This document shows positions 12,931 through 13,060 of a DNA stretch of 15,395 nt, in pieces (positions within the stretch are counted from its first letter, which is position 1; each line of letters begins with the position of its first letter). Source of the DNA: a virus. Its lineage: Duplodnaviria; Heunggongvirae; Uroviricota; Caudoviricetes. The notes beneath the pieces were generated by a model that saw nothing but the letters and a program-made list of their open reading frames with translations, did no database searches and was not told the origin of the DNA. A program made the position numbers and the translations under genes. The stretch lies in the IMG/VR virus record IMGVR_UViG_2551306525_000003; one strand, 5' to 3'.

Positions 12931-12970
12931 TAAAAATAAAACCACTGTAATATCAATCAATTACAGTGGT
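12931..12970 (-). repeat. Perfect 10-bp inverted repeat with 10-bp spacer and flanking T-run, in the cosB-equivalent position
   Basis: ACCACTGTAA (12941-12950), spacer TATCAATCAA, TTACAGTGGT (12961-12970). On the minus strand the stem is followed by TTTATTTTTA. It lies between cosN and the terS start. Confidence 0.5.
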
Positions 12971-12989
12971 GGTGATGACGAATAAAATT

Positions 12990-13060
12990 TCAAAAACTAG
13001 CCTTTTTCCGCGACGCTCCCGCCCCGTGGCAGGACACCCCACCGGGAGGACCCGTCAGCC
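12990..13060 (-). other. cos: cos site (cosQ/cosN-like); 12-nt cohesive-end candidate at 13013..13024
   Basis: Minus strand reads ACGGGTCCTCCCGGTGGGGTGTCCTGCCACG / GGGCGGGAGCGT / CGCGGAAAAAGGCTAGTTTTTGAAATTTTATTCGTCAT. This parallels the lambda right-end/left-end junction ...ACGGGTCCTTTCCGGTGATCCGACAGGTTACG / GGGCGGCGACCT / CGCGGGTTTTCGCTATTTATGAAAATTTTCCGG...TTCGTCAT, with the 12-mer differing at 4 positions. Confidence 0.65.

What the first reader, a model, noticed from the sequence alone, without database searches (positions are those of the whole stretch)
12931..13060. Lambda-like cos site with a variant 12-nt cohesive end, paired with a non-Nu1 small terminase
The cosQ/cosN architecture and flanking motifs (ACGGGTCC..., CGCGG, TTCGTCAT) closely parallel lambda, but the predicted cohesive end is GGGCGGGAGCGT against lambda GGGCGGCGACCT. 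The small terminase is an unrelated HTH protein, not Nu1. The cosB-equivalent interval is occupied by a perfect 10-bp inverted repeat (ACCACTGTAA/TTACAGTGGT) instead of lambda's R-site and IHF-site array. That repeat is a candidate recognition site for the small subunit, so this locus looks like a natural cosN-conserved, cosB-swapped packaging specificity.
Basis: partly seen in the sequence, partly recalled or inferred. Interest (0 to 1): 0.5.

Follow-up and report, generated by a model that had tools for sequence, protein, structure and literature searches.

The report
Lambda-type cos site of mEp460-like prophage
This is the DNA-packaging (cos) site of a common E. coli lambda-like prophage, with an already-deposited variant 12-base sticky end and its own lambda-style array of terminase and IHF sites, so it is an ordinary member of a known kind and not a new packaging design.

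Summary
On the minus strand there is cosQ (GGGTCCT), CCACG^GGGCGGGAGCGT^CGCGG and a perfect 11-bp (not 10-bp) inverted repeat, upstream of a DUF1441 small terminase and a gpA-type large terminase.

The 12-base end is not new. GenBank records of phages cdtI and Tritos start with exactly GGGCGGGAGCGTCGCGG... and end with ...CCTGCCACG. All four differences from lambda lie at bp 7-12, the half that Feiss and colleagues report varies naturally.

58 of 69 cos regions next to DUF1441 terminases, from Enterobacterales, Pasteurellaceae and Psychromonas, match the same cosQ-cosN frame. The pairing is therefore the rule for this family.

The claim that the repeat replaces lambda's R/IHF array is not supported:
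- An exact IHF consensus (TATCAATCAATTA) sits inside the repeat, at a position conserved across the family.
- A (CAY)4 tract lies where lambda and N15 have R3, and its type tracks the terminase HTH helix.
- An inverted copy and a direct copy follow it.

The repeat itself drifts (7-11 of 11) among prophages with identical terminase. It is absent from one such locus and from all other classes.

DUF1441 is probably a distant Nu1 relative (hhalign 61%, E 8e-5). Verdict: new member of a known kind, low interest.

The parts
13047..13053 (-). cosQ-like heptamer GGGTCCT (bp -29 to -23), within ACGGGTCCTCCCGGTG
   Evidence: It matches lambda's GGGTCCT, one base closer to the nick. CGGGTCCTCC or the alternative AAAGGTACTCC sits at this distance in nearly all DUF1441-type cos regions. 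Feiss 2015 describes cosQ as highly conserved.
13011..13026 (-). cosN: CG|GGGCGGGAGCGT|CG. Predicted nicks lie between 13025/13024 (strand shown) and 13013/12 (complement), giving the 12-nt 5' overhang GGGCGGGAGCGT (13024-13013).
   Evidence: cdtI AB285204.1 and Tritos OV696610.1 start with this 12-mer and end with ...CCTGCCACG. LLS annotates a 12-nt 5' cohesive site at the homologous place. yong2's record is broken at the other nick. Ayreon's assembly gap falls here. Among 99 IMG/VR loci, bp 1-5 are invariant and every change lies at bp 6-12.
12983..13012 (-). Conserved cosN-proximal spacer, bp 13-42: CGCGGAAAAAGGCTAGTTTTTGAAATTTTA
   Evidence: 19/30 identical to lambda bp 13-42 in register. 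CGCGGnnAACGGCTAGTTTT is conserved across the family. Mean majority fraction is 0.99 among 85 distinct close relatives.
12966..12980 (-). Proposed R3-equivalent small-terminase site, bp 45-59: CGTCATCACCACCAC, a (CAY)4 tract
   Evidence: It occupies the position of lambda R3 (bp 50-65) and N15 R3 (bp 48-60) given. A trinucleotide-periodic tract is present here in all classes, and its type tracks the terminase HTH helix. It is conserved in L013, which lacks the repeat. The assignment is inferred, not shown.
12951..12963 (+). IHF core consensus WATCAANNNNTTR: TATCAATCAATTA (bp 62-74 read on the other strand)
   Evidence: Exact match. The consensus occurs in the same orientation at +62 to +64 exactly in 15 of 58 family loci (0.2 expected) and with at most 1 mismatch in 32 of 58 (4.3 expected). 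TTGAT-A is near-invariant among 85 close relatives.
12930..12941 (+). A/T tract ATAAAAATAAAA, 9 bp 5' of the IHF core (bp 84-95); also the U-tract of the terminator-like reading on the minus strand
   Evidence: Read directly from the sequence. The resemblance to the layout of the lambda H' IHF site rests on my own knowledge.
12941..12970 (.). The 11-bp perfect inverted repeat of the finding (arms 12941-12951 and 12960-12970, 8-nt spacer). The left arm (bp 55-65) overlaps the end of R3 and the start of the IHF core. The right arm (bp 74-84) is the spacer between the IHF core and the A/T tract.
   Evidence: Searches show it is real and not chance. Searches give 7-11 of 11 complementarity among relatives with the same terminase. 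It is absent in L013 and in other classes.
12920..12931 (+). Proposed R2-equivalent, inverted: AATCGACACCAT (minus strand ATGGTGTCGATT, bp 94-105)
   Evidence: The best inverted matches to the R3 zone fall at +96 to +100 in the window clade and class A (TCGACATC, GACATCAT), and at +97 in one of the two CAG-class loci (TTGCAGCA in L048). Mean majority fraction is 0.98 among close relatives. Inferred.
12898..12908 (-). Proposed R1-equivalent, direct: TTGTTCATCAC (bp 117-127), 9/11 identical to TTCGTCATCAC of R3
   Evidence: Direct matches to the R3 zone fall at +120 to +124 in most enterobacterial loci (TTCATCAC, TCACCATC), and CGTGCAGC at +112 in the CAG class. Inferred. In class A this element abuts the start codon, so coding or translation constraint cannot be excluded.
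12344..12838 (-). Small terminase, 164 aa, DUF1441 family; N-terminal HTH (LNISQLAALSGVHRQTAAARL), conserved LETLPDILERDC in the C-terminal half
   Evidence: PF07278, E 2.7e-41. Annotated as terminase small subunit in Ayreon, mEp460, LLS and Gifsy-2. Alignment, model, hhalign to Nu1.
10242..12344 (-). Large terminase, 700 aa, gpA family (ATPase and endonuclease domains)
   Evidence: PF05876 and PF20454. 25% identity to lambda gpA over 624 columns, E 5e-18.

Best explanation
This is the cos site of an mEp460-like lambdoid prophage of E. coli, and it most likely works as lambda's does.

The gpA-type large terminase is positioned by the small terminase on cosB. It nicks both strands 12 bp apart at CCACG^GGGCGGGAGCGT^CGCGG, leaving 5' overhangs GGGCGGGAGCGT. 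cosQ (GGGTCCT, about 29 bp upstream) serves termination at the next cos.

cosB is not an inverted repeat standing in for lambda's array. It is a lambda-style 'complex' cosB with different site sequences:
- an R3-equivalent (CAY)4 tract at bp 45-59,
- an IHF site (core at bp 62-74, A/T tract at bp 84-95),
- an inverted R2-like element (bp 94-105),
- a direct R1-like element (bp 117-127).

These are read by the N-terminal winged HTH of a DUF1441 small terminase, which is probably a very distant Nu1 relative. The 11-bp repeat brackets the IHF core. Its left arm is part R3 and part IHF core, and its right arm is the IHF spacer. It probably has no separate role in terminase recognition.

Shown: the sequence elements, their conservation, and GenBank phage termini at this exact position.
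Inferred: the nick positions in this prophage, IHF binding, the identity of the R sites, and the assignment of roles.
For: - **Gene context.** Lysis genes, then cos, DUF1441 small terminase, gpA large terminase, W-like protein, lambda-type portal and a ClpP-capsid fusion. The large terminase aligns with lambda gpA at E 5e-18.
- **Termini.** cdtI and Tritos records begin GGGCGGGAGCGTCGCGGAAAAAGGCTAGTTTTT (33/33 identical to the window) and end ...CCTGCCACG. LLS, which has a DUF1441 small terminase, annotates a 12-nt 5' cohesive site GGGCGGCGCGCT at the homologous position. yong2's record is cut at the other nick.
- **Ayreon.** It has the same small terminase. Its assembly gap lay exactly at cosN and was filled with a chimera of its own Q and small-terminase genes.
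- **Measured ends in a distant relative.** Cr-LKS3, with a DUF1441-like small terminase, has measured 5' cohesive ends that keep lambda's first four bases and flanks.
- **Family frame.** 58 of 69 cos regions examined next to DUF1441 terminases share cosQ, CCACG, 12 nt and CGCGG.
- **Variation.** All four differences from lambda are at bp 7, 8, 9 and 11. Feiss 2015 reports that bp 7-12 vary naturally and tolerate mutation, and that complex cosB (R3-I1-R2-R1) is common.
- **IHF.** The consensus is enriched 70-fold at one fixed position and orientation.
- **R3.** Its position agrees with lambda, N15 and PICI R3. The R3 tract type tracks the HTH helix: HRQT with CAT/CAC, NRNM and GRNT with CAG, HRDT with GGC in cdtI.
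- **R2 and R1.** Inverted and direct partial copies recur at fixed positions.
Against: - No virion-end data exist for this prophage. The cdtI and Tritos starts may have been set by analogy with lambda, and the LLS end is explicitly inferred.
- The R-site assignment rests on short motifs. Per-locus matches are barely above shuffles (mean 6.3-6.6 of 8 against 5.8).
- The HTH-to-R3 covariation has few independent non-HRQT lineages and one exception (L068: HRDT with CAGCAG).
- R1 in class A overlaps the start codon.
- The repeat persists at 8 or more of 11 in nearly all prophages with this small terminase and shows a few both-sided changes. Some selection on it cannot be excluded.
Confidence: 0.75

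Rival explanations
1. First reader's reading. The inverted repeat is the recognition site of a small-terminase dimer and constitutes a simple cosB that replaces the R/IHF array.
For: The repeat is statistically real. Its left arm lies at bp 55-65, where lambda R3 is contacted (bp 55-63). It is retained at 8-11 of 11 in almost all E. coli prophages with this small terminase. A few changes are compensated on both arms, for example ATCACTGTAAT/ATTACAGTGAT.
Against: - Its outer arms are among the most polymorphic positions between cosN and the start codon among loci with identical small terminase.
- Plaque-forming mEp460 and Ayreon have 8/11 and 9/11 by my count from their sequences.
- L013 has a 100% identical small terminase and no repeat.
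- No other DUF1441 class has a repeat there, although the HRQT recognition helix is shared.
- An exact IHF core fills the spacer and the inner arm ends. IHF and a dimer on arms 19 bp apart would compete.
Confidence: 0.12
2. The repeat acts at the RNA level, as a hairpin followed by a U-tract. That is an intrinsic terminator or attenuator that insulates the terminase and head genes from read-through in the lysogen and is overridden by Q antitermination in lytic growth.
For: The terminator scan flags it on the sense strand: 11 pairs, 8-nt loop, tail TTTATTTTTA. The RNA fold is -17.7 kcal/mol, z -3.75. G.T mismatches on the sense strand outnumber A.C, 35 to 10, over haplotypes.
Against: - The stem has only 4 G-C pairs.
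- The scan found 2 sites against 1.3 expected.
- The G.T excess comes from one inherited pair; without it the count is 12 to 10.
- No hairpin plus U-tract is apparent at this place in the aligned cosB sequences of the other DUF1441 classes, judged by eye.
- The U-tract doubles as the A/T tract of the IHF site.
Confidence: 0.1
3. The site is a relic. The prophage is defective, or packages by another route, and the cos-like sequence is not used.
For: The window is a prophage of unknown inducibility. No end data are available for it.
Against: Plaque-forming phages mEp460, Ayreon, mEp460_4F5 and phi458 carry a 99-100% identical small terminase, and the three whose cos I read have a near-identical cos. 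cosN bp 1-6 and bp 13-56 are almost invariant among 85 distinct relatives. The large terminase is of the gpA cos type.
Confidence: 0.03

Closest known systems
Bacteriophage lambda cos (cosQ-cosN-cosB with R3-I1-R2-R1; Nu1/gpA terminase)
   Same: - cosQ heptamer GGGTCCT.
- CG dinucleotides flanking both nicks.
- bp 1-6 of the cohesive end identical, and bp 13-42 63% identical.
- gpA-family large terminase.
- An IHF consensus between a direct and an inverted element, and a third direct element before the small-terminase gene.
- The small-terminase gene starts at bp 187 (lambda: 191).
   Different: - Cohesive end differs at bp 7, 8, 9 and 11.
- cosQ is 1 bp closer to the nick.
- R sequences are unrelated ((CAY)4-type against CGTTTCC-type), and R3 starts about 5 bp closer to cosN.
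- The small terminase is Pfam DUF1441, with no BLASTP similarity to Nu1 and only a profile-level match.
- The head module is Gifsy-2-like (ClpP-capsid fusion).
Phages cdtI (AB285204.1) and Tritos (OV696610.1)
   Same: Identical 12-nt end GGGCGGGAGCGT. Identical bp 1-33 and near-identical cosQ-to-nick sequence. Their records are linearised exactly at this nick. Their small terminase is also DUF1441 (E 1.7e-44).
   Different: Their small terminase is only about 42% identical, with HTH helix HRDT in place of HRQT. From bp 34 on, cosB is different (CATGGCGGCGGCAACATG at the R3 position, TTTCACCTG repeats), although the IHF core sits at the same place (+64).
Phages mEp460, Ayreon, mEp460_4F5, phi458 (same small terminase, 99-100%)
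   Same: The same cos type and small terminase. mEp460 is 95.5% identical over 198 bases of the cos region. All are isolated, propagating phages.
   Different: mEp460 has G at bp 12 and a degraded repeat (8/11). The Ayreon and 4F5 records are corrupted at cosN by assembly. None of these records annotates cos.
mEp213, mEp043 and LLS, Gifsy-2, Fels-1 and other DUF1441-terminase lambdoid phages
   Same: The same cosQ-cosN frame, the same family of small and large terminases, and the same order of cosB elements. The LLS record annotates a 12-nt 5' cohesive site.
   Different: Ends such as GGGCGGCGCGCT. R3 is (CAT)4. cosB is 57 bp shorter, and R1 abuts the start codon. There is no inverted repeat around the IHF core.
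Packaging-specificity swaps with shared cosN (lambda against 21 against N15; PICI cos with Rpp)
   Same: A conserved cosQ/cosN is combined with a different cosB and a matching DNA-binding module.
   Different: Those cases are experimentally established. Here the specificity is inferred from sequence covariation only.

Membership tests
[quoted passage not shown] | 12-bp cohesive-end sequence related to GGGCGGCGACCT, with the left half conserved | tested here: met
   GGGCGGGAGCGT: 8/12 identical, bp 1-6 6/6, differences at bp 7, 8, 9 and 11 only.
lambda-like cos sites | Conserved 5'-CG-3' pairs flanking both nick positions | tested here: met
   CCACG|GGG...CGT|CGCGG. The same holds in most family loci.
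lambda-like cos sites | cosQ heptamer about 30 bp upstream of the nick | tested here: met
   GGGTCCT at bp -29 to -23, against -30 to -24 in lambda.
lambda-like cos sites | Virion DNA with 12-nt 5' overhangs at these positions | not testable with these tools
   Indirect evidence only: record ends of cdtI, Tritos, LLS and yong2 and the Ayreon assembly gap. The LLS end is stated to be inferred.
lambda-like cos sites | gpA-family large terminase | tested here: met
   PF05876 at 1.6e-71 and PF20454 at 1e-84. BLASTP to lambda gpA gives E 5e-18.
complex cosB (R3-I1-R2-R1) | IHF site between R3 and R2 | tested here: met
   Exact WATCAANNNNTTR at bp 62-74, with position and orientation conserved (15 exact and 32 near matches of 58, against 0.2 and 4.3 expected). 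Binding itself was not tested.
complex cosB (R3-I1-R2-R1) | Three copies of a small-terminase site, with R2 inverted relative to R3 and R1, and R3 at about bp 48-65 | tested here: inconclusive
   Candidate elements lie at bp 45-59, 94-105 (inverted) and 117-127, and recur in position across classes. R3 type tracks the HTH helix. The motifs are short and per-locus scores are near shuffle level.
Nu1 small terminase (Pfam PF07471) | Significant match to the Phage_Nu1 profile | tested here: not met
   No PF07471 hit even at E up to 10. BLASTP to lambda Nu1 gives E 20.
Nu1 small terminase (Pfam PF07471) | N-terminal MerR-like winged HTH followed by helical oligomerisation and terminase-binding regions (remote homology) | tested here: inconclusive
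DUF1441 (Pfam PF07278) | Match above the gathering score | tested here: met
   141.4 bits against a cutoff of 35.1.
Intrinsic (Rho-independent) terminator | G+C-rich stem-loop followed by a U-tract, conserved among relatives | tested here: inconclusive
   The pattern scan is positive on the minus strand, but only 4 of 11 pairs are G-C and 2 sites were found against 1.3 expected. z is -3.75. None is apparent in the other cosB classes, by eye.

The most novel reading that the evidence does not exclude
DUF1441 small terminases may read a trinucleotide-periodic R3 tract, (CAN)4 at bp 45-60, through one or two residues of the HTH recognition helix: HRQT with CAT/CAC, (N/G)RN with CAG, HRDT with GGC. 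That would give a simple natural code that sets packaging specificity across hundreds of enterobacterial and Pasteurellaceae prophages sharing a common cosN. In the E. coli clade, the inverted repeat around the IHF site could be an added, clade-specific layer, for example a second small-terminase half-site or an RNA hairpin.
Probability: 0.3. Interest if true: 0.45.

Novelty: new member of a known kind. Interest (0 to 1): 0.22.

Why it matters
Its value is mainly for annotation.

- It fixes the probable genome ends (13024/13013) for a very common E. coli prophage type. 802 of 5426 complete genomes carry a near-full-length match to this region.
- It shows that lambda-type cosQ/cosN is the norm next to DUF1441 small terminases, which NCBI still names only 'DUF1441 family protein'.
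- It flags two GenBank phage records whose cos region is corrupted.
- For packaging specialists, the family offers a larger natural set of cosB and small-terminase pairs than the three specificities studied so far (lambda, 21, N15).

It does not reveal a new packaging mechanism.

Tried and rejected
- **Ayreon as counter-evidence.** At first it looked like a viable phage lacking cosN at this place. The roughly 150-bp 'insert' turned out to be a chimera of its own Q gene and small-terminase gene, introduced by gap filling. It therefore supports physical ends here.
- **Literature on the 12-mer.** A full-text search for GGGCGGGAGCGT found only unrelated papers. The cdtI paper (Asakura 2007) and Vahanian et al. 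2017 (natural history of cosN) are not held. I could not check whether the cdtI ends were measured or whether this variant is tabulated. The Tritos and 4F5 papers say nothing on termini.
- **A diverse Nu1 set.** IMG/VR returned only 98-100% identical copies. I used the protein search instead.
- **RNA-level selection on the hairpin.** The wobble-bias count showed no clean signal once one inherited pair is removed.
- **More small-terminase diversity.** A second IMG/VR scan with the DUF1441 alignment returned only near-identical loci. It served as a cos-independent sample for the repeat statistics.
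Full report
**What is there.** The genes of this window run on the minus strand. They are a DNA methylase fragment, holin, lysozyme and Rz, then an 800-bp intergenic stretch, then a 164-aa DUF1441 protein (12838-12344), a 700-aa gpA-type large terminase, a W-like protein, a lambda-family portal and a ClpP-capsid fusion. The finding lies in the intergenic stretch. Read on the minus strand it is:

...GCTGACGGGTCCTCCCGGTGGGGTGTCCTGCCACG GGGCGGGAGCGT CGCGGAAAAAGGCTAGTTTTTGAAATTTTATTCGTCATCACCACCACTGTAATTGATTGATATTACAGTGGTTTTATTTTTATGGTGTCGATT....

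I number from bp 1 = window 13024, the first G of the putative cohesive end.

**Check of the observation.**
- The inverted repeat is 11 bp perfect with an 8-nt spacer, one base longer than reported.
- It is the only such repeat in the window, and none arose in 2000 shuffles of the region.
- In register with lambda, bp 1-6 are identical, bp 7-12 match at 2 of 6, bp 13-42 at 19 of 30, and everything beyond bp 43 is at background. The cosQ block matches, one base closer to the nick.
- TTCGTCAT occurs in both phages but 23 bp out of register, so it is not a shared landmark.

**The cohesive end is already in the databases.**
- The records of phage cdtI (AB285204.1) and phage Tritos (OV696610.1) start with GGGCGGGAGCGTCGCGGAAAAAGGCTAGTTTTT. 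That is 33 of 33 identical to the window. They end with ...GGGTCCT(T/C)CCGGTGGGG...CCTGCCACG.
- Phage LLS, which has a DUF1441 small terminase starting at base 130, carries the feature '5' extended single-strand cohesive site GGGCGGCGCGCT' at 1-12. Its paper says this end is inferred, citing Vahanian et al. 2017 and M. Feiss.
- Hafnia phage yong2 is linearised at the other nick: it ends ...GAGGGGGCAGCGACA and starts CGCGGGAAACGG.
- Cyanophage Cr-LKS3 has a small terminase 40% identical to this one. It has measured 5' cohesive ends that keep lambda's first four bases and the flanking bases.
- I could not verify whether the cdtI and Tritos ends were measured.

**Ayreon.** This plaque-forming phage has a 100% identical small terminase. 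At first it seemed to lack cosN. Between CCACGGGG and GGAAAAAGG its record has about 150 unrelated bases. Those bases are a chimera of Ayreon's own Q gene (39872-39959) and its own small-terminase gene (359-430). No E. coli genome carries that junction, and the genome note says gaps were closed with GapFiller. The assembly therefore broke exactly at cosN, as expected for physical ends. The mEp460_4F5 record starts 5 nt before the nick and lacks 3 nt of cosN. None of the 113 related IMG/VR loci shows that deletion.

**The pairing with DUF1441 is the rule.** A scan of one genome per species found 66 loci encoding relatives of the small terminase, in Enterobacterales, Pasteurellaceae, Psychromonas, Marinobacter and others. 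I anchored on CACG-N12-CGCGG and added the window, cdtI and Tritos. Of these 69 cos regions, 58 match at 14 or more of 18 specified positions. They show a cosQ-like motif (CGGGTCCTCC or AAAGGTACTCC), CCACG, a 12-mer and CGCGGnnAACGGCTAGTTTT. The 12-mers include GGGCGGCGGACT, GGGCGGCGGGGT, GGGCGGCGCGCT, GGGTTGCGGACT and GGGTTTCGGGCG.

Among 99 IMG/VR loci with a near-identical small terminase, the end is GGGCGGGAGCGT in 78 and GGGCGGGAGCGG in 18, with three singletons. Every change is at bp 6-12. This matches Feiss and colleagues, who report that bp 7-12 vary naturally and tolerate mutation, that the flanking CG pairs and cosQ are conserved, and that N15 differs at bp 9 and 12 and Gifsy-1 at 8, 9 and 11. 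The window differs from lambda at bp 7, 8, 9 and 11.

**What occupies cosB.** The aligned family shows conserved blocks downstream of cosN.
- **(CAN)n tract at bp 45-60.** It is GTCATCATCATCAT in most Enterobacterales and Pasteurellaceae, CGTCATCACCACCAC in the window clade, GTGCAGCAGCA in two loci, GGCAGCAGCAGCAG in Psychromonas and CATGGCGGCGGCAAC in cdtI. This is the position of R3 in lambda (bp 50-65), N15 (48-60) and PICIs (48-65).
- **IHF consensus.** YAANNNNTTGATW occurs in one orientation at +62 to +64. It is exact in 15 of 58 loci against 0.2 expected, and within one mismatch in 32 against 4.3 expected. In the window it is exact: TATCAATCAATTA on the plus strand at 12951-12963. An A/T tract lies 9 bp further 5' on that strand. 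From my own knowledge, this is the layout of the lambda H' IHF site.
- **Inverted element around +96 to +100.** It reads AATGATGTCGAA in class A, ATGGTGTCGATT in the window and TGCTGCAA in the CAG-class locus L048.
- **Direct element around +112 to +124.** It reads GTTCACCATC, TTGTTCATCAC or CGTGCAGC.

This is lambda's order and orientation, R3-I1-R2-R1, which Feiss describes as common among lambda-like phages. The type of the R3 tract also tracks the second HTH helix of the small terminase: HRQT with CAT/CAC, NRNM and GRNT with CAG, and HRDT with GGC in cdtI and L071.

These assignments are inferences. Per-locus repeat scores are close to shuffle level. There is one exception to the covariation (L068). 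In class A, R1 abuts the start codon.

**The inverted repeat in this light.** Its left arm (bp 55-65) is the end of the R3 tract plus the first bases of the IHF core. The spacer and the first base of the right arm complete the core. The right arm (bp 74-84) is the stretch between the core and the A/T tract.
- Among 85 distinct cos regions with a near-identical small terminase, the most variable positions between cosN and the start codon are bp 57-58, 66-67 and 79-83. These are the outer arms and the N positions of the IHF consensus.
- Complementarity ranges from 7 to 11 of 11 and is perfect in 10 of 85. A sample chosen by protein identity alone gives the same picture.
- Viable phages mEp460 and Ayreon have 8/11 and 9/11 by my count from their sequences.
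- L013 encodes a 100% identical small terminase. It keeps the R3 tract, the IHF core, the A/T tract and the R2-like element, but has no repeat.
- No other cosB class has a repeat there.

The repeat nevertheless persists at 8 or more of 11 in nearly all members of the clade, and a few changes are matched on both arms. A clade-specific role therefore cannot be excluded. On the sense strand it also fits a terminator pattern and folds at z = -3.75. However, the stem is A/U-rich, the excess of G.T over A.C mismatches disappears once one inherited pair is set aside (12 against 10), and no such hairpin is apparent in the other classes.

**Is the small terminase unrelated to Nu1?** By Pfam and BLASTP it is a different family, and a profile search of PDB sequences finds nothing.
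- A profile-profile comparison of 29 DUF1441 sequences with 20 Nu1 sequences gives a colinear 113-column alignment covering the HTH, the wing and the helical region (probability 61%, E 8e-5).
- The AlphaFold model (pLDDT 79) has an N-terminal strand-helix-helix-strand-helix unit followed by long helices.
- The best Foldseek hits are MerR-family proteins, the fold class I recall being reported for the Nu1 DNA-binding domain, but at non-significant E of about 0.1.
- JGI already labels some members 'phage terminase Nu1 subunit'.

I read this as probable distant homology with the same domain plan. It is not shown.

**Comparison with what is known.** The site meets the sequence criteria for a lambda-like cos: the cohesive end, the CG flanks, cosQ and a gpA terminase. 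Physical ends are untested. It works like lambda's cos with a different cosB specificity. That principle is established for lambda against 21 against N15 and for PICI cos sites. The specific cosB grammar of DUF1441 terminases is not described in any paper I could read. It is a variation in site sequence, not in kind.

**Verdict.** The feature is real, ordinary and largely already represented in public records. The interpretive novelty claimed, a repeat replacing the R/IHF array, is not supported. I score it low. A modest residual interest lies in the possible correspondence between the R3 tract and the recognition helix.

Noticed in passing
L004/L005 (GenBank MF807953.1, phage Ayreon) 44404-44567: The record has a chimeric fill at cosN, made of pieces of the phage's own Q gene and small-terminase gene. 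The annotated CDS 'putative late gene regulator' (44298..44582) is an assembly artefact.
   Followed up: yes
L001/L002 (GenBank LR595868.1, mEp460_4F5) record start and end: The record is opened 5 nt upstream of the predicted nick and lacks 3 nt of cosN (GGGCGGGAGCG---CGG). None of the 113 related IMG/VR loci shows this deletion, so it is probably an assembly error at the physical ends.
   Followed up: partly
window 12997-13245 (-): An 82-aa ORF runs across cosQ and cosN. It is annotated as a hypothetical protein in mEp460 and has no Pfam hit. It would be split in linear virion DNA and is probably not a gene.
   Followed up: partly
L012-L074, about 20-35 nt upstream of the nick: Two alternative cosQ-like motifs occur upstream of DUF1441-type cosN: CGGGTCCTCC (lambda-like) and AAAGGTACTCC. 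The second is universal in the Pasteurellaceae loci and frequent in Enterobacterales.
   Followed up: no
window 13461-13480 (-) and 13410-13453: Two tandem hairpins follow the lysis cassette. One is a G+C-rich terminator-like stem with a T-run. The other is a 19-nt inverted repeat (89% complementary) that Ayreon's record annotates as a terminator.
   Followed up: no
window about 12991 (bp 33/34) and about 13057 (cosQ): Mosaic joints coincide with cos sub-site borders. cdtI and Tritos homology ends right after bp 33, and phi458 homology starts at cosQ. The cos core seems to act as a recombination or exchange boundary between modules.
   Followed up: partly
window 6553-8772 (-): A 739-aa ORF fuses a ClpP-type protease domain to a major capsid domain. 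The LLS paper describes this arrangement for Gifsy-2-type heads.
   Followed up: no
L008 (cdtI) bp 40-60 and L071: In the cdtI-type cosB, the element at the R3 position is itself palindromic (CATGCTGGCGGCAGCATG in L071). It is followed by three TTTCACCTG-like direct repeats, a different site grammar within the same protein family.
   Followed up: no
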